From: Pseudotevenvirus miller
Taxonomy: Duplodnaviria; Heunggongvirae; Uroviricota; Caudoviricetes; Straboviridae
Direction: 5' to 3' (one strand)
DNA: 64,000 nucleotides
Virus record (IMG/VR): IMGVR_UViG_2706796139_000001
Coordinates: 50,895 to 114,894 of that record
Shown: positions 19,691 to 55,104 of the stretch, one piece after another
Position numbering within the stretch: the first letter of the stretch is position 1
Layout: each line of letters opens with the position of its first letter
The notes under the pieces: model-generated
Database searches by the model: none
What the model was told of the DNA's origin: nothing
The model's input: only the letters and a program-made list of their open reading frames with translations
Made by a program: the position numbers and the translations under genes

Positions 19691-20304
19691 TTCGGCAACG
19701 TGTCCATTTTGCGTGATTTTTCCAACAGGGTTTTGATTACCGTATCCATCGCCTGTTCTGTATCACCATCATGATAGATGATCGCGGTTTGATGCAAACC
19801 TTTCACCAGACGATTGATAATGTACGCCATTTCGGTCGGTAACAGTTTACCCGTTTTGTTGAATTTTTCAAACAGATTGAACAGTTCTTCGTTATTCCCT
19901 TTCTTACGGAAATTGAAGTTGTGCATCCCAGACAGAAGACTATCCAGATACAGAACTGTTTTGTTATCAGAGCGGAGGTGTCCACCGATTTTGTAGTAGT
20001 TGCTGAAAACGTATGGTGCTTCACGAACATCATCGATGTCGAAACCAGCATCATCGATATTGCCTACGTGGGAGAAGAAATCCGCATCGTTATCGAACAG
20101 ATTGATCGCGCCTTTCTTGTATGGGAATCCAGCCAGGTTAATGACTCCCTTTTCATACGCATCATCGTTATCAACGACAACGTATTCAGGAAGCATAGGG
20201 GCATATGGTTTGTTTTTGTCGTGGTTTTCGCGATACGCTAAAGGTTCAGCCAGATAGAGGATATCGCCTTGTTTGACTTCATCCCAAAAGATATTACGTG
20301 ACAT
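19687..20304 (-). CDS. hypothetical protein (about 205 aa) downstream of the vWA gene
   Basis: Starts MSRNIFWDEVKQGD with a GAGG RBS and an upstream gcccccTTTCgggggc hairpin. The listed 261 aa ORF is an extension into the vWA gene. Confidence 0.5.
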   Translation of the reverse strand: MSRNIFWDEVKQGDILYLAEPLAYRENHDKNKPYAPMLPEYVVVDNDDAYEKGVINLAGFPYKKGAINLFDNDADFFSHVGNIDDAGFDIDDVREAPYVFSNYYKIGGHLRSDNKTVLYLDSLLSGMHNFNFRKKGNNEELFNLFEKFNKTGKLLPTEMAYIINRLVKGLHQTAIIYHDGDTEQAMDTVIKTLLEKSRKMDTLPK

Positions 20305-20344
20305 ATTAAATTCCTCAACATGCCCCCTTTCGGGGGCTATATCA

Positions 20345-22564
20345 TTACAGTTTAACTTCTTTTTCTTCCAGGACGATTTCGCAATCGAATGTTGCACCTT
20401 CCCAGAACTTATGCGGGATAATGTCAGTCGCTTTAACCGATACTTTGGTTTCTTCGAAATCCATATCCGCAAACCATGCGTGGCCTACAACGATACCGTA
20501 CATTACACGGCTCAGGCGCTTGTTCAGTGCGCGTACTTCGTTGATGGTTGCCTTTGTTTCTTTATCAAGGTACTCGATTACCTTATCCTTGTCAAGCGCT
20601 GCGAGTTCAGCTTTAACAGCATCGTAAGCCCACAGGATGATCAGGTCGCCGTTGTTCAGTTTCTTCTTACCTTCGGCACGTTTCGCAACGGTTGCCGCTA
20701 CAGCAGGAAGGGAGGAAACACCCTTGATTTTCAGATTCAGTTCTTTCGACATATAAACATCAGTCGAATCGGTACGGGTTACTTTCGGGGAGAATCCATA
20801 ATCACGAATACCCTGTTCAGATAACCATTCACCAGCGGCTTCACCGTATTTCTGTTTCAGACCTTCGGCATTACGTAAACCGATCGCATCGTCACGGAAG
20901 AACTTCATCACCTTCTGGCGACCTTTCAGGATTTCCAGACGGATAGAGTCGTTTACATACTCTTTACCGGAGATCCCGCGAGTCATCGCACGGTTAACCA
21001 GAGGCAGACTTGTAAAGTCAACCAGAACCGACATACGGTCTTCACCGATTTTTGCCAGCGGCTTGATGGTCAAACCAGAAGCGCGGAGGTTTTTCAGTGT
21101 CGGAATATCAGTTTCCAGAGGCAGAACCTTAACGTTTACGATACCGTCTTTAACGATGGTAAAGTTACGCACCTGCTTAGTTTCGATCTGTTCAGGCAGT
21201 CCGAATTCTTTCTGCTTACTTTCTGGGATAGTTACGTAACCAGCCAGATCCGTGTTAATGGAAATGTTCGGACGTGAACTGTTACCGACCAGATGCTTAA
21301 CCGATACTTTGGTTGTAGTCTGGGTAAATTTCGGTGTCCAGATTTCGTGCGTTACCATTTGCGCGGCTAATGCTTTGCGTTCTTCCGGTGTTTTCGCATT
21401 TGCGATCTGTTCTGACAGTTGATCCAGAGTATCATCTTCTTTCTGTACTGTCTGACGGCCTGTACGGTTGTACGCCCAGTGTTCAGAAGACAGGTCGATC
21501 ACTGTGTCAGTTTCTGCCAACAGTTCGAGAGCATCAACCAGAGTGAATGCGTTTTCGTCTGGAACCATGTTGTAATCAACACCCTCAATCAGACGTTTAC
21601 CCGCATCAACTACCGCTTCCGCGATCAGGTCTTTGGCGTTGGAATAATCCTGCTTAGTAAAGCAGTTATCGTATGCCTTAATCAGACGAACGTCACCGAC
21701 TTTTTTCAGCACTTTCCATGCCAGATCAGGGTTCATGGTGTGCAGTGCATGATACAGCACCACGTACAGAACCTGTTCACCTTCCATCGTAGCCGGATCG
21801 AATCCGTCGATGTCGTTGATTGCGTTTTCACCCAGCGCCCAGATGTTTTTGATATGCTCAGGAACCAGCACAACACCGTTTGCAGCGTTAAGGACATACA
21901 CGCGCCCTTCGTCAATGTAGATCGCATGGGTAGCATCACCTACTTTAACTTCAACACGCGCTGATGTTTGAGCGGTAATGATTTCAGCAAATGCTGGCTC
22001 GTATGCGTCGAAACCTTCAACGAATTTATGCAATGCGTTGGTTGCTTCTGCCATTTTTTCCAGCAGAGGACGGTTAACATAGTAACCATATTCCAGGAAC
22101 GCAATGCTGTTAAACGTCAGCGGGAGAACCGCACACGCTTTCAGGATGTCATCGGTACGCCAGCAGTTATCATAACCATCCGTCAGGAAGATCAGGCTGT
22201 TCAGGTTTCCGTTTTCGGATTGCAGGTCAGTTGCAATCTCAGCAGCCAGATTCAGAGGTTCGACGAAACCAGTACAACCAGTAGGTTTCAGATAACGGTC
22301 GATCGCGGTGCAGATATTGGTCAGATCCGATACGTTGCTAACCTTCTCACCACGGAACACAGTACCGTAATCGCCTTTGCTGGAGAAGTACAGGATCGAA
22401 ACAGTATCATCCTGTTTAACCAGGCTTGCCAGATTCGCTTTCAGGTGCTTACGAATTTTCGGCAATTCACTGTACATTGAACCGGAAACGTCGCAAACGA
22501 AAACGTGGTTGGTCGGAGTCGGTTTAGATACTGCATTTTTGAATTCGATATTTGTAATTGACAT
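20345..22564 (-). CDS. von Willebrand factor A (vWA) domain protein, 739 aa
   Basis: N-terminal MIDAS motif VFVCDVSGSMYS ... LFLTDGYDN. The long C-terminal region has no recognisable domain. Not Alt-like or RIIA-like. Confidence 0.8.
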   Translation of the reverse strand: MSITNIEFKNAVSKPTPTNHVFVCDVSGSMYSELPKIRKHLKANLASLVKQDDTVSILYFSSKGDYGTVFRGEKVSNVSDLTNICTAIDRYLKPTGCTGFVEPLNLAAEIATDLQSENGNLNSLIFLTDGYDNCWRTDDILKACAVLPLTFNSIAFLEYGYYVNRPLLEKMAEATNALHKFVEGFDAYEPAFAEIITAQTSARVEVKVGDATHAIYIDEGRVYVLNAANGVVLVPEHIKNIWALGENAINDIDGFDPATMEGEQVLYVVLYHALHTMNPDLAWKVLKKVGDVRLIKAYDNCFTKQDYSNAKDLIAEAVVDAGKRLIEGVDYNMVPDENAFTLVDALELLAETDTVIDLSSEHWAYNRTGRQTVQKEDDTLDQLSEQIANAKTPEERKALAAQMVTHEIWTPKFTQTTTKVSVKHLVGNSSRPNISINTDLAGYVTIPESKQKEFGLPEQIETKQVRNFTIVKDGIVNVKVLPLETDIPTLKNLRASGLTIKPLAKIGEDRMSVLVDFTSLPLVNRAMTRGISGKEYVNDSIRLEILKGRQKVMKFFRDDAIGLRNAEGLKQKYGEAAGEWLSEQGIRDYGFSPKVTRTDSTDVYMSKELNLKIKGVSSLPAVAATVAKRAEGKKKLNNGDLIILWAYDAVKAELAALDKDKVIEYLDKETKATINEVRALNKRLSRVMYGIVVGHAWFADMDFEETKVSVKATDIIPHKFWEGATFDCEIVLEEKEVKL

Positions 22565-24391: not shown

Positions 24392-24670
24392 TCAGTGTCC
24401 AAACACACCACGAATTGATTCAGCGAAAGCGTAAAATGCTGGGTTGTTTTCTTTCAGCATCGCTTCTGATTTCAGAAGATAATCGCTTTTGAACTTAGTA
24501 CCGAACAGGCAGTAAGAGAAAGAGCGATCCCACATGAAGCAATTGTAATACTCACCACAACGAACTTCTACCCAAACAGAGGCAGGATTAGAACCTTCGG
24601 CATACTCTTTCAGGAGGTTGTATTTCGCATCAGCACCAGGAAAACCAGCCAGCAAATCGTTGTAAGTCAT
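24392..24670 (-). CDS. hypothetical protein (92 aa)
   Basis: ORF behind a PeSL-variant leader (24671..24741). Confidence 0.45.
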   Translation of the reverse strand: MTYNDLLAGFPGADAKYNLLKEYAEGSNPASVWVEVRCGEYYNCFMWDRSFSYCLFGTKFKSDYLLKSEAMLKENNPAFYAFAESIRGVFGH

Positions 24671-24741
24671 GATGTGTTCCTTTTCGGTTTCGTTTCAACA
24701 AGGACACTGTATTATAATTCAATCATCATTGCAAGCACTTT
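24671..24741 (-). promoter_or_regulatory. PeSL-variant early promoter and leader (minus strand)
   Basis: Reverse complement: ...gaatTATAATacagtgtccttgttgaaacgaaaccgaaaaggaacacatcATG. Confidence 0.4.
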
Positions 24742-24996
24742 TTAAAAAAGATGCGTTAAATGCCCTGCATTGCTGGGATATTCTACGTAATCACCACGGA
24801 AGATGTTCAAATCTTTGTCAAATTTAAACCCTTGACCTTGAACATCTTCATGGCGCGACACATAAGAAACTCCATATTTTTCAAGGTCTTCCATATACAT
24901 TTCAGTGATTCTCTTCGCCTTATCCATCCCGCGCCCCTCGAATCGAGAACGTCGATAATGTGTAAGAAGAAACGCGTATAATTTTTCGTATGTCAT
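24742..24996 (-). CDS. hypothetical protein (84 aa)
   Basis: ORF. Confidence 0.4.
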   Translation of the reverse strand: MTYEKLYAFLLTHYRRSRFEGRGMDKAKRITEMYMEDLEKYGVSYVSRHEDVQGQGFKFDKDLNIFRGDYVEYPSNAGHLTHLF

Positions 24997-25904
24997 TTCA
25001 ACACCTTTCTGATTTGTTTTGCTATCGCTTCGATCACCGGAACCGATACAGAGTTACCAGCTTGTTTGTATGCCTGTTTCTTGCTTGTGGGGATCTGGAA
25101 TGTATCGGGGAATCCCTGCAAGCGAAAACATTCACGCGGGGTTAATCGTCGTGGGTTCTTCCCGTCCTGCAACACCAGACACTGAACACCATCCTTATAA
25201 TATTGCGCTGTGATGGTTCCTGTGTGCGTAGAATCGCTTGTGACGGCCTGATAACCAAACCCCTTACCATTCGCCTTGTTTCGTTCCTTACGCTCTCTAA
25301 AGCCTTTCCATGCGTTATCTGATAGGGTGTATGAATCATCAGCATCTTCGAGGATGTCGCCCACTCTCGTAGGGGTACGCGGGGGAACCGGAAACGAAAA
25401 GAATACATCTTCCAGGAAACAAACAATAAACACACGTTCACGTCGCTGGGGCAATCCGAAATCTTTTGTATTCAGTCGTTGATAGAATACGTTGTATCCT
25501 TCGGCCTCCAGAAGCCCGTAAATCGTTTTAAACGTCTTTCCCTTGTCATGGGTTAGTAGTTCAGGCACGTTCTCAAAGAACAGCACACGGGGCTTTTTAG
25601 CGCGTATGATGCGGAGTATTTCGAAGAACACCGTACCGCGAACATCATCGAACCCCAGTTTTAATCCTGCTTTACTGAATGCCTGACACGGGAACCCAGC
25701 CAACAGGATATCGTGATCAGGTACTTTGTTTTCGTCGATAGCGAACAAGTCACCTTCGAGATTATCACCGCCCCAGTTAGCGGCATATGTTTGTTGCGCG
25801 TATTTGTCAATCTCAGCAGTCAACGCACATTCAATACCATTGAACGCACGATCGAAGCCCAGACGAACACCGCCCACGCCAGCGCATAAATCAATTACTT
25901 TCAT
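24993..25904 (-). CDS. DNA (cytosine-5)-methyltransferase (Dcm-like)
   Basis: All canonical C5-MTase motifs present: I DLCAGVGG, IV GFPCQAFS, VI ENV, VIII QRRERVFIV, X GNSVSVPV. 303 aa. Confidence 0.9.
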   Translation of the reverse strand: MKVIDLCAGVGGVRLGFDRAFNGIECALTAEIDKYAQQTYAANWGGDNLEGDLFAIDENKVPDHDILLAGFPCQAFSKAGLKLGFDDVRGTVFFEILRIIRAKKPRVLFFENVPELLTHDKGKTFKTIYGLLEAEGYNVFYQRLNTKDFGLPQRRERVFIVCFLEDVFFSFPVPPRTPTRVGDILEDADDSYTLSDNAWKGFRERKERNKANGKGFGYQAVTSDSTHTGTITAQYYKDGVQCLVLQDGKNPRRLTPRECFRLQGFPDTFQIPTSKKQAYKQAGNSVSVPVIEAIAKQIRKVLK

Positions 25905-25931
25905 AAATATACCTAAAAAGAGGGATTTATT

Positions 25932-26633
25932 ATGCTAATATCAGCAGACAGTGTAGACGAACTCAATCAGAAGGTCAACCAACTATTAGATCAAGGTATG
26001 TATCTATGGGGTAGCCCTTTTGTTGTACCCAACAGCTATCACAACCAGACACGATTCTTCCAGCAGGTTTCAAACGTGAATCCATCAGGAGGCGGCGTTG
26101 ATGGTAAAAGCGCGTATCAGCTTTGGCTTGAACAACCAGGGAATGCAGGGAAACCAATAACAGATTTCTTTGCAGCGACTGCTGGCGTTCGTAAAAAATC
26201 AGAGGTGTTCTGGACGGGGTTAACTTTGGTCGTTCCAGAAGATACACCAACAAACTTAATCAACCTGCTTAAAACGATCGTACCAACAACGGGAACTCTT
26301 GAACCATTCTTTAAGATCACCGATAACAAATTGCATCCATTCAATGAAGATGCAACAGTTCAATTCAAGTTGAACCTGAAAGGTACTTTCACTGGTGCGG
26401 CAACAGCCCCACGAAGCGTAACACTGGATTTTGTCGGTACACAGGGAAATACCCTTGTATTGAACAGAAGCCAATCAGTAACAACCAGCACCCTTTCATT
26501 CGTCACTTTCTTTAGTGTCGATAAAAACGGTAATATGGCAACCAACGGAACCGCGATCAATATCTTCGCAAGCGGTAGTCCGTTCACATTGTCAGAAGTT
26601 TTACTGGTTGCAGAACAGCGCACCACTCAATAA
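25932..26633 (+). CDS. putative fiber-like or surface protein, 233 aa, Thr/Gly-rich
   Basis: The only + strand gene in the minus-strand region. Contains GKSAYQLWLEQPGNAG, a motif common in phage tail-fiber proteins. Preceded by cATAAATAta (late-promoter-like). Divergent from the MTase gene. Confidence 0.5.
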   Translation: MLISADSVDELNQKVNQLLDQGMYLWGSPFVVPNSYHNQTRFFQQVSNVNPSGGGVDGKSAYQLWLEQPGNAGKPITDFFAATAGVRKKSEVFWTGLTLVVPEDTPTNLINLLKTIVPTTGTLEPFFKITDNKLHPFNEDATVQFKLNLKGTFTGAATAPRSVTLDFVGTQGNTLVLNRSQSVTTSTLSFVTFFSVDKNGNMATNGTAINIFASGSPFTLSEVLLVAEQRTTQ

Positions 26634-26658
26634 AAAGCCCCTTTCGGGGCTTTTCTTT
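26632..26658. terminator. bidirectional rho-independent terminator
   Basis: aaaaagccccTTTCggggcttttcttt between convergent genes. Confidence 0.6.
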
Positions 26659-26920
26659 ATGCTTCAAAATCGATTTCGTCGATCTTGTAAGACTGTTCAT
26701 CAATGTCAGCCCACAGAGTGACTTTAATCGATTTACGATCTTCGTACAGCGGCTGTCCGTTGAGTCCACCAGTGTATTCACTGTGTGTATTTTCATCAAC
26801 TTCCAAACGCAGACTTTCACGAAGGATGTTAACAACGGCTTCCTGCAACGTTACCGCGCCGGACTCTTTACCTGTATTATCCAGGCACACATCTTTGATG
26901 CTCAAAATTAAATCAGACAT
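26657..26920 (-). CDS. hypothetical acidic protein (87 aa)
   Basis: ORF. Confidence 0.4.
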   Translation of the reverse strand: MSDLILSIKDVCLDNTGKESGAVTLQEAVVNILRESLRLEVDENTHSEYTGGLNGQPLYEDRKSIKVTLWADIDEQSYKIDEIDFEA

Positions 26921-27201
26921 CAGTAACTACCCCATGTATAAAAATCAAACTTTTCGGTTTCCGCTTCTTCAACACGAATTCTATAATCGCAACCTTCTTC
27001 TATGCGGTTAACGTGTTCGAAATCAACGTTATATATGCGATTAAACACAGAATATAAAGCATCACGGATCTTTTCTGCGATTACCTTATCTTCTTTTCCG
27101 ATATGCAAAGTAAGCATATCACGAATTGTATCTTCAATACGGCGAACATCGCGTTCATCGATGTATCCAGTATATAAATTGATTTCTTTCATTAGTGCCA
27201 C
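26920..27201 (-). CDS. hypothetical protein (93 aa)
   Basis: ORF. Confidence 0.4.
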   Translation of the reverse strand: MALMKEINLYTGYIDERDVRRIEDTIRDMLTLHIGKEDKVIAEKIRDALYSVFNRIYNVDFEHVNRIEEGCDYRIRVEEAETEKFDFYTWGSY

Positions 27202-42405: not shown

Positions 42406-42698
42406 AAGTGACTAATCTCAGCAGATTTCATTTTCATCTGGATAGCCTGAACAGCAAGGTCGCGCTGTTCTTCGGTTTCGTATCCAGCCCACGTTACAGA
42501 ATCTTTATGAACGAAGTGAAACACAATAGCAGGTTTCCACACGTTACCAGGACACGGAACAGTAGCATCAGTTTGTATCCAAGAAACGTGGTCTGTGTTT
42601 ACCGGATAATTGGTACATTCAACACTACCACTATCAACAAACATTGTATGCGGTGCGTACAAACGTGTATATTTTTTGATTCTGGATATAATCAACAT
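42402..42698 (-). CDS. hypothetical protein (98 aa)
   Basis: ORF immediately downstream of the radical SAM gene. Confidence 0.4.
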   Translation of the reverse strand: MLIISRIKKYTRLYAPHTMFVDSGSVECTNYPVNTDHVSWIQTDATVPCPGNVWKPAIVFHFVHKDSVTWAGYETEEQRDLAVQAIQMKMKSAEISHL

Positions 42699-43852
42699 TA
42701 TTTCAACTCCACCGCGTATACATCAGTTTCGGGGGCTTTGTGTACGCGCATATCTTTACCGCATACTGCATAAGCCGGACAGTTACGACAACCGTTATGA
42801 TCCTTATTACCGATCAGTTCATTACGGAACTGTTTGGTTTTCGGATGTTCCCAGATATCCTTAATGAAATCGTTCGCTTCCAGGACATTCAAACCTTCTT
42901 CCCAACCACCTTCAACCCAGCGTTCGGTAAACGAACAAGGGAAGAACTCGCCTTTCTCGTTGATGTACGAGCTAAACATGGTTGCTTCACAATCTTCGGC
43001 ATACTGTTTGTACTGTTCGAAGTTTGGGTGTCCTTCCATCGCTTCAACGAAAGCGGGGGCTGAACAGCTATCGAAACCAAATCCTACACCAGAATCAAGG
43101 CAGTATTCAACAAGTTTTTTGTATTGTTCGCGGGTAACAGTATCCCAGTTCTTACCGCGTCCCTTTTGTTTCAGCCCCAGGAACACAATCGCATTGACTT
43201 GTTTCAGGCGCGGATCATTCTTCACAGCGTCAACCACGTTAAACGCGTCATCATAGGTTTTAGAGCTAACCATGAAATGAAGGTTGATCTGCTGTTGTCC
43301 TGCTTCTGACAGGTTCGCTACCGAGTCGAAAGCGACATCGAAGCCAGCATGTTTATAAACCGATACCGCAACAGCCCCAGCAACCGCAGCCAAACGCGCT
43401 GCAACGTCTTTTGATACATCGGCAATGGTAAGGTTCGGCACAATGCCTTTAGAACGCGCATAGGCCATCATATCGAACATATCAGGGTTTGTTTGTCCCT
43501 GTGCATCAGCACCGAGGGCGCATTGAGTCAACCAGGGCATTTTATCAATGATAGATTTGAACGATTTCAGATCCATATTGTAGCCGTTAGGGTTGTTAGA
43601 CTTGTAACAGAAACCGCATAGCTTACCAGCGGGGCCATTACATTTCGTGGTGATCTCAATATCGAGAATTTCAGGGAAAGGCGCGTATGTCGGATCGCTT
43701 GCAAAGGTTGTACCCCAACGAGCGAATTCGCCAGTGTCAACATTGAAATTGTAGTTGTACCACTTAGAGCGAGCAAAGCGCATATTACCCTGCTGGTAAA
43801 TCATCAGCGAAGGGGCTTTCATTACAGTTTGTGCGCGGTCAATAATATCCAT
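42698..43852 (-). CDS. radical SAM-like enzyme with C-terminal Cys-rich (SPASM/twitch-like) domain
   Basis: DIEITTKCNGPAGKLCGFCY resembles the radical SAM core (T..CN..C.YC) but with Cx7Cx2C spacing. The C-terminal half has 7 Cys, including GCRNCPAYAVCG. Start uncertain (MDIIDRAQ or upstream). Confidence 0.55.
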   Translation of the reverse strand: MDIIDRAQTVMKAPSLMIYQQGNMRFARSKWYNYNFNVDTGEFARWGTTFASDPTYAPFPEILDIEITTKCNGPAGKLCGFCYKSNNPNGYNMDLKSFKSIIDKMPWLTQCALGADAQGQTNPDMFDMMAYARSKGIVPNLTIADVSKDVAARLAAVAGAVAVSVYKHAGFDVAFDSVANLSEAGQQQINLHFMVSSKTYDDAFNVVDAVKNDPRLKQVNAIVFLGLKQKGRGKNWDTVTREQYKKLVEYCLDSGVGFGFDSCSAPAFVEAMEGHPNFEQYKQYAEDCEATMFSSYINEKGEFFPCSFTERWVEGGWEEGLNVLEANDFIKDIWEHPKTKQFRNELIGNKDHNGCRNCPAYAVCGKDMRVHKAPETDVYAVELK

Positions 43853-54004: not shown

Positions 54005-54276
54005 TTATGATCTCCATTTTATAGATATTTATGTAGACCGTGAGCGAAGCGAACACACGAACGAAGTGAGTGTTTTTGACTCAACTACATAATTATATAT
54101 TTATATTTTATATATAGAGAAAAATGTAGTTTTTGGTATGGTTTTTAACCAGATGTAAACTATCCGTCTTCGCTTCGCTTGACGGAACTCGCTTCGCTCG
54201 TAACCTTGAATAATTTACTTGATCCTTTCAATAAATAGGTATATCATACCCATACTTTCAAAAGAGATTGAAAACA
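54005..54276. repeat. AT-rich divergent-promoter region with nested inverted repeats
   Basis: The outer repeat gagcgaagcgaa ... ttcgcttcgctc and the inner repeat aactacat ... atgtagtt flank the core aattatatatttatattttatatatagagaaaa. ATAAATA late-promoter-like boxes face both ways. Confidence 0.5.
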
Positions 54277-55067
54277 TGAAATCATTCAAAGAACTACTTT
54301 CTGAATCCACTCAGAACAAAAAATTTGCAAAGACCGTTGAACTGGTTGACCGTAATGGTGTTGCTCCATCAAAAGGCCAGATAGGTTTCCTTCATTTTGC
54401 ACACGGTGCTGATTACGATGTGTATGCGCCGGATTCTCATGACCTGGCTTACTTCGGTAAAGGCGTTGTTCGTCTGAAAGGGAAAACCACTGGTAAAACT
54501 CAGGCTGCATACGTTGACTGGGCTAAGGGTACGGTTTCCTTCTACAGCGGTGATCCTGCTGATGACCTGAAATTCGACAAACCGTTAAAATTCAAAGGTG
54601 CTTCCCTGTACAAAGAAGCCGAAGAAAATCTGGATCTGTACAATCAGTTAGCGGAAGATTTCGAAATCGAACTTCCGTTAGATGAATCACTGGTTAAGGG
54701 TGCTATTTACAAATTGCCAAGCAATGATATGCGCCTGATGTACACTGGGCGTTCAAAGACAAAAGCAACTGGTGAATACGCTGTCTTTACCGTTGTAGAT
54801 GCTTCTGGTAAGCCTCGTCTGGTTTCTGGTAAACGTTTTACCCAAGAATATAAAGGCGATATTCTGTCTAAGCTGGTTCTCGCTGAATCGGAAGACCTGA
54901 ATGAAGCGGCTAAAGACATTCGCGAAAAAGTTATTGCGGTGTTGGTGAAACGCGGGTTTAACGAAAAAGATGCAGAAAAGATGGTTGACAAAAACCTGAA
55001 AGATGCGATGAAAGTTAGACCTGGTGCGACCCCTGGCAAACTTGCAGAAATCGTGAGTACCCTGTAA
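54277..55067 (+). CDS. internal head protein (IP) with a T4-type capsid targeting sequence
   Basis: N-terminal MKSFKELLSE|STQ matches the T4 IP CTS MKTYQEFIAE, cleaved after LxE by the prohead protease. Lys-rich, 263 aa. Lies in the ipI-like neighbourhood (near genes 1, 2 and 3). AATAAATA lies upstream. Confidence 0.55.
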
Positions 55068-55071
55068 AAAT

Positions 55072-55104
55072 AAAGCCCCTTCCTTTCGGTTGGGGCTTTT
55101 TGTT
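55072..55104. terminator. bidirectional rho-independent terminator
   Basis: aaagccccttcctttcggttggggctttttgtt, the same hairpin as at 16911..16934. Confidence 0.6.

What the first reader, a model, noticed from the sequence alone, without database searches (positions are those of the whole stretch)
24993..26633. Dcm-type C5-cytosine methyltransferase divergently paired with a late-promoter-driven fiber-like gene
A complete C5-MTase with all canonical motifs sits in a T4-like genome, where cytosine is normally replaced or hypermodified. Its start codon is only 27 nt from the start of the sole + strand gene in this region. That gene is a 233 aa Thr/Gly-rich protein with a tail-fiber-type G-K-SAYQLWLEQ motif, preceded by a late-promoter-like cATAAATAta. 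This pairs an early anti-restriction or epigenetic function with a probable virion surface protein in one divergent unit.
Basis: partly seen in the sequence, partly recalled or inferred. Interest (0 to 1): 0.6.

Follow-up and report, generated by a model that had tools for sequence, protein, structure and literature searches.

The report
Phage cytosine methylase beside knob-fibre gene
Two real and already annotated phage genes sit back to back because one was inserted next to the other, not because they work together: an orphan cytosine methyltransferase that probably protects CC(N/W)GG sites from host restriction enzymes, and a late-expressed knobbed fibre that probably decorates the virus particle.

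Summary
The window is Citrobacter phage CfP1/Miller, an RB43-like Pseudotevenvirus. Both ORFs exist exactly as described.

**Methyltransferase.** The 303-aa protein is a complete C5-MTase. It is not surprising here, because the genome has no dCMP hydroxymethylase and so carries ordinary cytosine. Its closest relatives are the SsoII/Ecl18kI/NlaX methylases. I predict it methylates the inner C of CCNGG, or of the CCWGG subset. The site statistics fit this: CCWGG is tolerated, while CCSGG and about 30 six-base palindromes are nearly purged.

**The + strand gene.** It has three parts:
- an N-terminal DUF1737 domain, which a 2026 preprint shows by cryo-EM to be a capsid-binding decoration domain;
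- one shaft repeat, whose copy number is 1, 2 or 5 in close relatives and which is replaced by collagen in others;
- an Sf6-type TNF-like knob with conserved L-glutamate-binding residues.

The CATAAATA late promoter is credible. Three other late genes in this genome use the same octamer, and orthologues carry TATAAATA at the same spacing.

**The pairing is incidental.** RB16 has the methylase without the fibre gene. Dhakavirus and Kanagawavirus phages have the fibre gene without the methylase. The fibre gene is a self-contained cassette of promoter, ORF and terminator.

Both genes were described before, so overall interest is low to moderate.

The parts
24993..25904 (-). Orphan C5-cytosine DNA methyltransferase, 303 aa (CfP1 gp223; RB43 ORF127c orthologue), SsoII/Ecl18kI/NlaX clade
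   Evidence: PF00145 E 1e-94 over the full length. TIGR00675 scores 321 bits against a cut-off of 100.65. M.HhaI matches at E 5e-64. It is 59% identical to P0127, an HTH-MTase paired with an R.Ecl18kI-like enzyme.
25683..25691 (-). Motif IV, Pro-Cys-Gln (catalytic Cys73)
   Evidence: Regex on the translation. It aligns with GFPCQAFS of M.HhaI.
25155..25394 (-). Target-recognition domain (aa 171-250)
   Evidence: 51 of 80 residues are identical to the Ecl18kI-system MTase P0127. About 23 of 79 are identical to M.HhaI (that sequence was partly reconstructed, so the figure is approximate). The core motifs GxGFGY and A(Q/R)YYKDG are shared with E. coli Dcm.
25902..25909 (+). T4-type late promoter candidate CATAAATA; bases 25902-25904 are the MTase start codon on the other strand
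   Evidence: It ends 22 nt before the ATG. AnYang and PEi20 orthologues have TATAAATA 22 and 25 nt before their ATG. In CfP1, CATAAATA also precedes the tail tube gene (14 nt), the long-tail-fibre distal subunit gene (21 nt) and gp160 (21 nt). It is conserved in RB43, GuL6 and L019.
25920..25924 (+). Shine-Dalgarno GAGGG of the fibre gene
   Evidence: Read directly from the sequence.
25932..26633 (+). Knob-fibre gene, 233 aa (CfP1 gp222; RB43 ORF128w orthologue)
   Evidence: ORF. dN/dS 0.06-0.07. PHROG 1030 E 7.5e-74.
25935..26069 (+). N-terminal DUF1737 domain (aa 2-46), the putative capsid anchor; Tyr36 is at 26037-26039
   Evidence: PF08410 scores 26.0 bits (cut-off 24) when the domain is scanned alone, and 12 of 12 homologues match. 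hhalign against the 933W NanS-p N-terminus gives 86.5% probability and E 4.6e-6, with Y36 aligned to Y42. The AF2 model shows one helix plus three strands, the same elements reported for phi24B gp84.
26103..26186 (+). Single copy of the GKSAYxxWxxxxGNxGK..F shaft repeat (aa 58-85, two short helices)
   Evidence: Copy number is 1, 2 or 5 in close homologues, and collagen G-X-Y replaces it in others. The repeat occurs in hundreds of fibre-like protein clusters. Helices 61-66 and 76-84 appear in the model.
26187..26624 (+). Sf6-type TNF-like knob domain (aa 86-231); putative L-glutamate ligands E91, K146, S195, D197
   Evidence: PF16532 E 7e-35. Sf6 gp9 (3RWN) and HS1 (4K6B) match at E 6e-34. The model superposes on 3RWN with TM 0.89 and rmsd 2.2 A. 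The four residues are invariant in 17 homologues. By manual indexing of the alignment, they correspond to Sf6 E146/K200/S248/D250 (PMC3741392).
26633..26659 (.). Bidirectional intrinsic terminator between the fibre gene and the convergent upstream - strand gene
   Evidence: Hairpin energy is -14.1 kcal/mol on + (z -3.5) and -16.6 kcal/mol on - (z -4.9), with U runs on both strands. CfP1 and RB43 annotate the same site (PMC1524935 supplement).
25905..26656 (+). The whole inserted cassette (remainder of the promoter, RBS, ORF, terminator), absent from RB16
   Evidence: In RB16 the MTase ATG overlaps the stop codon of the upstream gene (TCATG). CfP1 carries this ~750-bp block exactly at that junction.

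Best explanation
These are two independent accessory genes of an RB43-like phage that uses ordinary cytosine.

**(A) The methyltransferase.**
- *Shown:* gp223 is an orphan C5-MTase of the SsoII/Ecl18kI/NlaX lineage. It lacks the N-terminal HTH regulator and has no partner endonuclease.
- *Inferred:* it is made from the - strand (early-type) transcripts and methylates C5 of the inner cytosine of CCNGG, or of its CCWGG subset, on replicating phage DNA. This would block EcoRII-type and SsoII/Ecl18kI-type restriction enzymes, which are common in its enterobacterial hosts. Sites the phage cannot protect have been purged from the genome instead.

**(B) The fibre gene.**
- *Shown:* the protein consists of a DUF1737 N-domain, a flexible linker, one helical shaft repeat and an Sf6-type TNF-like knob.
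- *Inferred:* it is transcribed late by gp55-RNA polymerase from CATAAATA, trimerises through the knob and shaft, and is displayed on the virion. I think the most likely site is the capsid, attached through the DUF1737 domain at hexon centres as in phi24B. There it would act as a non-essential adhesion fibre whose shaft length evolves quickly.

**(C) The arrangement.** The back-to-back layout results from where the cassette inserted. It is not a regulatory unit.
For: **Identity and DNA chemistry**
- The window is 100% identical to CfP1 positions 50895-114894.
- There is no gp42 or beta-glucosyltransferase. A gp56 homologue and a Dam homologue are present (annotation; PMC2993671).

**MTase family and target**
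- Family assignment.
- It is 59% identical overall, and 64% in the recognition domain, to P0127. P0127 sits divergently from an enzyme that matches R.Ecl18kI at E 2e-101 and is followed by Vsr.
- M.NlaX is a natural HTH-less SsoII homologue with the same CCNGG specificity (PMC3978073). M.SsoII methylates the inner C, and SsoII-like systems are widespread in Enterobacteriaceae (PMC6100179).
- Site statistics (observed/expected): CCWGG 310/398, CCSGG 8/106, GGWCC 15/96. Thirty of 64 six-base palindromes have O/E below 0.2.

**Fibre protein**
- Domains.
- DUF1737 is a capsid-binding domain in phi24B (bioRxiv 10.64898/2026.04.10.717836).
- Variable shaft.
- In Aeromonas phage 44RR2.8t the knob homologue lies between genes 23 and 24, in the head module.
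- A knob homologue was detected by mass spectrometry in a Vi01-like phage (PMC10892097).

**Late promoter**
- Position and comparisons.
- gp55 and gp33 homologues are annotated in the genome.

**Independence of the two genes**
-.
Against: - No methylome, transcript or virion-proteome data exist for this phage or any Pseudotevenvirus that I could find.
- N versus W in the target cannot be settled by homology at 59% identity. The strong CCSGG depletion fits a CCWGG-only enzyme at least as well as a CCNGG one.
- Host Dcm could also explain why CCWGG is tolerated.
- The DUF1737 match is marginal: 21.8 bits in the full-length protein and 26.0 bits as an isolated domain, against a cut-off of 24.
- The capsid-binding evidence is a single preprint on a T=9 podovirus with a different capsid protein.
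- CfP1 also encodes a Hoc-like protein. In T4, Hoc occupies the hexon centre.
- A six-fold anchor has to be reconciled with a three-fold knob.
- Nolan et al. did not call a late promoter at this site in RB43.
- No convincing promoter for the MTase was found. Sigma-70-like hits in the region are at chance level.
Confidence: 0.55

Rival explanations
1. The fibre is attached to the tail (baseplate, tail tip or fibre tip), as the RefSeq label 'tail needle knob' suggests, and takes part in adsorption or envelope penetration like the Sf6 needle.
For: In the only solved homologues, Sf6 gp9 and HS1, the knob sits at the tail-needle tip. The phi812 central spike knob and PRD1 P5 are distant fold matches. 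The GKSAYxxW repeat is common in tail-fibre-like proteins, and three long-shaft homologues weakly hit the T4 gp34 family PF21560.
Against: No P22/Sf6 needle N-terminal plug or long coiled coil is present; the N-terminus is DUF1737. T4-like myoviruses use gp5/gp5.4, not a needle. The gene lies far from the tail and baseplate modules, and in 44RR it sits between head genes 23 and 24. Leavitt et al. treated these homologues as of unknown function.
Confidence: 0.28
2. One reading: the two genes form one divergent regulatory unit that couples an early anti-restriction function to a virion protein. For example, late-promoter firing at the MTase start codon would shut off MTase transcription.
For: The 26-27 nt spacing and the CATAAATA/ATG overlap are conserved in CfP1, RB43, GuL6 and the metagenomic relative L019. 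Early antisense transcripts must cross the fibre gene to reach the MTase.
Against: RB16 keeps a 93-95% identical MTase with no fibre gene, and there it overlaps the upstream gene. Three other T4-like lineages keep the fibre gene with TATAAATA and no MTase. The overlap follows simply from the insertion point.
Confidence: 0.07
3. The MTase has a different specificity (for example GCGC like M.HhaI, its best PDB match) or a non-protective role. One proposed role is shielding phage DNA from the phage's own DenA and gp56 homologues (PMC8056088).
For: M.HhaI is the top PDB hit and aligns over the full length. GCGC is not depleted, with O/E 0.99. The review speculation appears.
Against: The HhaI recognition loops are not conserved. 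Recognition-domain identity to HhaI is about 29%, against 64% to the Ecl18kI-system MTase. [quoted passage not shown]
Confidence: 0.1

Closest known systems
M.NlaX / M.SsoII / M.Ecl18kI (C5-MTases; CCNGG, inner C)
   Same: Same length class as M.NlaX (303 aa against about 310). It is 57-61% identical to NlaX-like proteins and 59% identical to an Ecl18kI-system MTase, with a recognition domain that is 64% identical. All ten-motif hallmarks that I checked are present.
   Different: It is phage-encoded and has no endonuclease partner. Like NlaX, it lacks the SsoII N-terminal HTH autoregulator. Its specificity has not been measured, and it could be restricted to CCWGG.
E. coli Dcm / M.EcoRII (CCWGG)
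   Same: The recognition-domain core is homologous (GxGFGY...A(R/Q)YYKDG). In the phage's own genome 310 of 318 CCNGG sites are CCWGG, so its practical substrate resembles that of Dcm.
   Different: Only 36% identical, with many insertions in Dcm. It scores 200 bits against the 710-bit cut-off of the Dcm subfamily model NF007772.
Sf6 gp9 / HS1 tail-needle knob (PF16532; PDB 3RWN, 4K6B)
   Same: 45% identical knob domain. The predicted fold superposes at TM 0.89. The four L-glutamate-contacting residues are conserved.
   Different: No needle N-terminal plug or long coiled-coil shaft. The host virus is a T4-like myovirus. The N-terminus is DUF1737.
phi24B gp84 / 933W NanS-p (DUF1737 capsid-decorating esterase)
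   Same: The N-terminal ~50 aa are homologous (hhalign 86.5%; Pfam above cut-off as an isolated domain). The secondary structure is the same: one helix plus three strands. The 'tooth' tyrosine aligns, Y36 to Y42.
   Different: The payload is a trimeric knob fibre rather than a sialate O-acetylesterase. Capsid binding is untested, and the capsid protein and T-number differ.
PRD1 P5 spike, adenovirus-type fibres and T4 Hoc (display proteins on virions)
   Same: Same architecture of anchor, thin and sometimes collagen-like shaft, and TNF-like trimeric knob (PRD1 P5 is a fold hit). Like hoc, it is a dispensable-looking late gene.
   Different: No sequence relationship to Hoc. P5 sits at vertices, not hexons.
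Phage 'morons' (Hendrix)
   Same: A single ORF flanked by its own promoter and terminator, inserted between two genes of an operon, and present or absent among close relatives.
   Different: It uses a phage late promoter rather than a host sigma-70 promoter, and it probably encodes a virion component rather than a lysogenic-conversion factor.

Membership tests
C5-cytosine DNA methyltransferase (PF00145 / TIGR00675) | Full-length profile match above the curated cut-off | tested here: met
   PF00145 scores 317.9 bits (cut-off 22), covering aa 1-299 of 303. TIGR00675 scores 320.9 bits (cut-off 100.65).
C5-cytosine DNA methyltransferase (PF00145 / TIGR00675) | Catalytic and AdoMet motifs I (FxGxG), IV (PCQ), VI (ENV), VIII (QxRxR), IX and X (GNSV) intact | tested here: met
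   All were located and align with M.HhaI. They are conserved in RB43 and RB16.
SsoII/Ecl18kI/NlaX clade (CCNGG) | Recognition domain closest to MTases that pair with an Ecl18kI-type endonuclease | tested here: met
   51 of 80 recognition-domain residues are identical to P0127. P0127's neighbour matches R.Ecl18kI at E 2e-101.
SsoII/Ecl18kI/NlaX clade (CCNGG) | Methylation of the inner C of CCNGG | not testable with these tools
   Only indirect evidence is available: CCWGG is tolerated (O/E 0.78) and CCSGG is purged (0.08). This fits either CCNGG or CCWGG.
SsoII/Ecl18kI type II R-M system | Adjacent cognate endonuclease and an N-terminal HTH regulator on the MTase | tested here: not met
   The neighbours are small hypothetical genes and the fibre gene. 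The protein starts at motif I. It is therefore an orphan, like NlaX.
Dcm subfamily (NF007772) | Score above the subfamily cut-off | tested here: not met
   200.4 bits against a cut-off of 710. 36% identity to K-12 Dcm.
T-even hydroxymethylcytosine DNA | dCMP hydroxymethylase (gp42) and glucosyltransferase genes in the genome | tested here: not met
   A tblastn search of T4 gp42 against the whole CfP1 genome hits only td (24.5% identity). Beta-glucosyltransferase has no hit. Nothing relevant is annotated.
[quoted passage not shown] | Profile match above cut-off and a TNF-like jelly-roll fold | tested here: met
   120.6 bits (cut-off 27). The AF2 model has pLDDT ~90 over the knob and superposes on 3RWN at TM 0.89 and rmsd 2.2 A.
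[quoted passage not shown] | Conserved L-glutamate-binding residues (Sf6 E146, K200, S248, D250) | tested here: met
   E91, K146, S195 and D197 are invariant in 17 homologues. I mapped them to the Sf6 residues by manual indexing of the alignment. The residues are defined in PMC3741392.
P22/Sf6 tail needle protein (whole protein) | N-terminal portal-plug domain and long trimeric coiled-coil shaft | tested here: not met
   No such Pfam or PDB match exists upstream of the knob. The N-terminus is DUF1737 and the shaft is 28 aa.
DUF1737 (PF08410) capsid-decoration domain | Profile match above cut-off | tested here: met
   21.8 bits within the full-length protein (below the cut-off of 24), but 26.0 bits when aa 1-54 are scanned alone. 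12 of 12 homologous N-domains match. hhalign against the NanS-p N-terminus gives 86.5% probability. The match is marginal but consistent.
DUF1737 (PF08410) capsid-decoration domain | Fold of one helix plus three antiparallel strands, with an anchoring Tyr in the loop | tested here: inconclusive
   The model shows E2-5, H8-20, E24-26 and E42-47, and Y36 aligns with Y42. No superposition was possible, and Tyr is replaced by Thr or Phe in AnYang and PEi20.
DUF1737 (PF08410) capsid-decoration domain | Binding to the centre of capsid hexons | not testable with these tools
   Shown only for phi24B.
T4-type late promoter | TATAAATA-like -10 element at a suitable distance upstream of a gene, with gp55 and gp33 in the genome | tested here: met
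   7 of 8 bases match, and the element ends 22 nt before the ATG. The same CATAAATA stands before three bona fide late genes. Orthologues have TATAAATA. The -13 position is known to be poorly conserved (PMC1524935). gp55-like and gp33-like genes are annotated.
T4-type late promoter | Late transcription start observed | not testable with these tools
   No transcript data are available. Nolan et al. did not predict this site.

The most novel reading that the evidence does not exclude
DUF1737-anchored trimeric knob fibres may be an unrecognised second class of head decoration in T4-like phages, distinct from Hoc and Soc. Six N-domains would sit on a gp23 hexon and carry two glutamate-binding TNF-like knobs on shafts. 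Shaft length changes quickly, through gain or loss of repeats or replacement by collagen. The gene would move between genera as a late-promoter/terminator cassette that lands near nrdC.11.
Probability: 0.35. Interest if true: 0.5.

Novelty: new member of a known kind. Interest (0 to 1): 0.25.

Why it matters
**What removes the original interest.** This phage lineage keeps ordinary cytosine, so a C5-methyltransferase has a normal substrate. The adjacency of the two genes is an insertion accident.

**What remains useful.**
- There is now a concrete, testable target prediction for the Pseudotevenvirus methylase: the inner C of CC(N/W)GG. It comes with a genome-wide picture of how an unmodified T4-like phage copes with restriction. 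It methylates a few motifs and purges the rest.
- There is a testable assignment for a protein whose function was explicitly called unknown in 2013: a capsid-anchored knob fibre. This extends the very recent DUF1737 capsid-binding result to large lytic myoviruses.

Both points bear on phage-therapy candidates against Klebsiella, Enterobacter and Citrobacter. They affect restriction escape and host range, and they point to a capsid display or adhesion module.

Tried and rejected
- **Structure for the N-domain.** A PDB sequence search with an N-domain profile found nothing at E up to 10, so no solved structure could be used for that domain.
- **Published promoter predictions.** I searched the Nolan 2006 supplements for a predicted early or late promoter near RB43 positions 75220-75340 and 75900-76100. 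None is listed; only the bidirectional terminator appears.
- **MTase promoter.** A sigma-70 promoter scan around the MTase gave 12 hits against 8.4 +/- 3.1 expected. All hits were 9 of 12 matches, which is not informative. The MTase promoter remains unknown.
- **Motif count.** The YATAAATA count in the window is not above chance, so I rejected it as stand-alone evidence.
- **GCGC specificity.** I considered a GCGC target because M.HhaI is the top PDB hit, and rejected it on recognition-domain comparison.
- **Virion proteomics.** Literature searches for Pseudotevenvirus virion proteomics and for the fHe-Yen9-01 primary paper returned nothing usable. The vB_EcRAM-01 paper mentions neither gene.
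- **NCBIfam.** It has no model for the fibre protein.
- **Hoc-like protein.** Pfam gives no hit for the Hoc-like protein gp124, so I could not verify its Hoc assignment.
- **N-domain relatives.** The representative-library search with aa 1-85 was dominated by the shaft repeat. It yielded only a few extra N-domain relatives.
Full report
**Where the window comes from.** Bases 24500-27200 are 100% identical to Citrobacter phages vB_CfrM_CfP1 and Miller (Pseudotevenvirus miller, Straboviridae). I rebuilt the whole CfP1 genome from four fetched pieces. The window equals CfP1 positions 50895-114894 exactly. RefSeq already labels the two genes 'DNA methyltransferase' (gp223) and 'tail needle knob' (gp222).

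**Checking the observation.**
- The - strand ORF 24993..25904 encodes 303 aa. The + strand ORF 25932..26633 encodes 233 aa. They are 27 nt apart.
- The MTase matches PF00145 end to end (E 1e-94) and TIGR00675. It has motifs I, IV (PCQ, Cys73), VI, VIII, IX and X.
- GKSAYQLWLEQ is at aa 58-68.
- CATAAATA occupies 25902-25909, and its CAT is the MTase start codon.
- The fibre gene is the only + strand gene across about 37 kb.
- It is clearly coding, with dN/dS of 0.06-0.07 against RB43 and GuL6.

Only 'Thr/Gly-rich' is overstated.

**Why a C5-methylase is not surprising here.**
- T4 gp42 finds only the thymidylate synthase gene in CfP1 (24.5% identity), and beta-glucosyltransferase finds nothing. 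gp56 (46%) and Dam (52%) homologues are present.
- The full annotation lists no hydroxymethylase, glucosyltransferase, Alc or DenB.
- Petrov et al. list genes 42, alc and denB as absent from RB43-type phages (PMC2993671). Nikulin et al. note that this group has no non-canonical-base genes but does have a C5-methylase (PMC8056088). Nolan et al. listed RB43 ORF127c as a C5-methylase in 2006 (PMC1524935).
- The DNA therefore contains ordinary cytosine, which is a normal substrate.

**What the methylase most likely targets.**
- The best solved homologue is M.HhaI (E 5e-64), but the HhaI recognition loops are not conserved.
- A database search gave thousands of bacterial homologues at 57-61% identity and 305-310 aa. 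Some of them are named NlaX.
- One homologue, P0127, carries an N-terminal HTH. It lies divergently from a 309-aa enzyme that matches R.Ecl18kI at E 2e-101, and a Vsr gene follows it. This is the SsoII/Ecl18kI organisation.
- The phage enzyme is 59% identical to P0127 overall and 64% identical in the recognition domain. Its recognition-domain identity to HhaI is about 29%; that sequence was partly reconstructed, so the figure is approximate.
- M.NlaX is described as a natural HTH-less SsoII homologue with the same specificity (PMC3978073). M.SsoII methylates the inner C of CCNGG, and SsoII-like systems are widespread in Enterobacteriaceae (PMC6100179).
- E. coli Dcm (CCWGG) is only 36% identical, but it shares the recognition-domain core.
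- I conclude that the target is the inner C of CCNGG or of CCWGG. This is an inference.

**Support from genome composition.** I compared observed site counts with Markov expectations.

| Site | Observed | Expected |
|---|---|---|
| CCWGG | 310 | 398 |
| CCSGG | 8 | 106 |
| GGWCC | 15 | 96 |
| RCCGGY | 0 | 69 |
| CCWWGG | 2 | 41 |
| GGATCC | 0 | 55 |
| CTGCAG | 0 | 47 |

- Thirty of 64 six-base palindromes have O/E below 0.2. GATC (0.93) and GCGC (0.99) are untouched.
- Purging on this scale is what I would expect of a phage whose DNA is exposed to type II enzymes.
- The motifs that survive include the one this methylase family modifies and the Dam motif.
- CCSGG depletion can be read in two ways. 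The enzyme may be CCWGG-only, so that CCSGG is the residual target of CCNGG endonucleases; this effect has been shown experimentally for Dcm-methylated DNA (PMC8989522). Alternatively, methylated CCGGG would create CmCGG, which McrA-type enzymes attack; this second point rests on my own knowledge. I cannot decide between the two readings.

**Anatomy of the + strand protein.**
- *Knob.* aa 84-229 match PF16532 (E 7e-35) and the Sf6 and HS1 knob crystal structures (E 6e-34, 45% identity). An AlphaFold model (mean pLDDT 85) superposes on 3RWN with TM 0.89. More distant fold matches are TNF-like trimers: PRD1 P5, C1q and lectins.
- *Ligand site.* The four residues that Leavitt et al. identify as L-glutamate ligands correspond to E91, K146, S195 and D197, by manual indexing of the alignment. 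All four are invariant in 17 homologues.
- *Shaft.* Homologues share the N-terminal ~50 aa and the knob, but the segment between them varies. There are one, two or five copies of a ~33-aa GKSAYxxWxxxPGNxGKT..F repeat, or collagen G-X-Y tracts. The five-repeat form sits at the same locus in a close relative. This looks like a fibre with an evolvable shaft.
- *Earlier notice.* Leavitt et al. (2013) had already noted knob homologues of unknown function in RB43 and other T4-like phages.

**The N-terminal domain.**
- aa 2-46 hit DUF1737 at 21.8 bits in the whole protein. Scanned alone, the domain scores 26.0 bits, above the cut-off of 24. All 12 homologous N-domains match.
- hhalign against the 933W NanS-p N-terminus gives 86.5% probability and E 4.6e-6, with Tyr36 aligned to Tyr42.
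- A 2026 preprint on phi24B shows by cryo-EM that this domain of the NanS-p esterase gp84 has one helix and three strands. It binds as a hexamer to the central pore of capsid hexons, with Tyr42 acting as an anchoring 'tooth'.
- The model of the CfP1 protein has the same elements: E2-5, H8-20, E24-26 and E42-47.
- In Aeromonas phage 44RR2.8t, a knob protein with a different N-terminus lies between genes 23 and 24, in the head module.
- My preferred reading is therefore a head-decoration fibre. The caveats are listed under evidence against.
- Weak support for presence in the virion comes from a mass-spectrometry hit in a Vi01-like phage and from 'structural protein' labels in a few records.

**Late promoter.**
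- In CfP1, ATAAATA occurs 38 times on both strands together. Fifteen copies lie 14-49 nt upstream of virion or lysis genes.
- CATAAATA specifically precedes the tail tube gene (14 nt), the long-tail-fibre distal subunit gene (21 nt) and gp160 (21 nt), as well as this gene (22 nt).
- Orthologues in Dhakavirus AnYang and Kanagawavirus PEi20 have canonical TATAAATA 22 and 25 nt upstream.
- Nolan et al. report that position -13 is poorly conserved.
- The gene ends in a hairpin that terminates on both strands.

**Are the two genes a unit? No.**
- RB16 has the methylase, 93-95% identical, directly overlapping the upstream - strand gene and with no fibre gene. Junction alignment shows that window 25905-26656 is a clean indel.
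- AnYang, PEi20 and a metagenomic T4-like phage carry the fibre gene as a lone + strand gene next to nrdC.11/RlaP, with no methylase.
- The conserved neighbour of the fibre gene is nrdC.11, not the methylase.
- One consequence is left open. In cassette-bearing phages the methylase has lost its overlap with the upstream gene. It must be transcribed either through the terminator or from an unidentified promoter inside the antisense fibre gene. Promoter scans there are at chance level.

**Verdict.** Both genes were already annotated and discussed in the literature. The new elements are inferences:
- a CC(N/W)GG target for the methylase;
- the cassette structure of the fibre gene and the CATAAATA promoter built on the MTase start codon;
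- the DUF1737 domain and the capsid-fibre hypothesis it suggests.

I rate interest at 0.25 and classify the finding as a new member of known kinds.

Noticed in passing
Whole window (and the whole CfP1 genome): Palindrome avoidance is extreme. 27 of 64 six-base palindromes are absent from the 64-kb window. Genome-wide, 30 of 64 have O/E below 0.2 (for example GGATCC 0/55, CTGCAG 0/47, AAGCTT 0/39). Among five-base sites, only CCSGG (8/106) and GGWCC (15/96) are purged, while CCWGG, GATC and GCGC are not.
   Followed up: partly
window 14735: This is the only CCSGG site in the window, against 121 CCWGG sites. Its methylation state would discriminate a CCNGG enzyme from a CCWGG enzyme.
   Followed up: no
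window 54230-55099 (+): A second lone + strand gene lies among - strand genes (CfP1 gp159, 54276..55067, 263 aa, no Pfam hit). It has AATAAATA 38 nt upstream and a bidirectional terminator. This is the same cassette-like layout as the fibre gene.
   Followed up: partly
L019:3001-4140 and proteins P0001, P0003, P0004: In near-identical Pseudotevenvirus relatives, the shaft repeat of the fibre protein is present in 1, 2 or 5 copies at the same locus. Yersinia phage fHe-Yen9-01, AnYang and PEi20 have collagen G-X-Y tracts instead.
   Followed up: yes
protein P0276 (metagenomic, 520 aa): It carries two tandem DUF1737-like domains, followed by a different beta-repeat fibre. This suggests that the N-domain is a reusable anchoring module.
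   Followed up: partly
L006:2066-2932 (Aeromonas phage 44RR2.8t ORF163w): This knob homologue has a different N-terminus (FNGRIGPV...GDYTA motif). It is encoded between the major capsid gene 23 and the vertex gene 24.
   Followed up: partly
CfP1 genome outside the window: 153859-154710 and 19871-20605: There are two further methyltransferase genes. One is Dam-like (PF02086, 52% identical to T4 Dam). The other is a 244-aa protein with only a weak MTS-domain hit. The phage therefore carries three methylases.
   Followed up: partly
CfP1 genome 17648-18181 (outside the window): A gp56 (dCTPase/dUTPase) homologue, 46% identical to T4 gp56, is retained in a phage that keeps cytosine in its DNA. PMC8056088 also notes this puzzle.
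   Followed up: no
window 20345-22564 (-) and 42698-43852 (-): A 739-aa protein has an N-terminal von Willebrand A-like DxSxS motif (the RB43 ORF119c orthologue). A radical SAM protein lies among the small early genes. The function of both is unknown.
   Followed up: no
L011:3523-4927 (Morganella morganii P2-like prophage): The closest cellular homologue of the phage MTase (61% identical) sits next to a truncated 156-aa EcoRII-C fragment. This looks like a decayed R-M system that left an orphan methylase.
   Followed up: no
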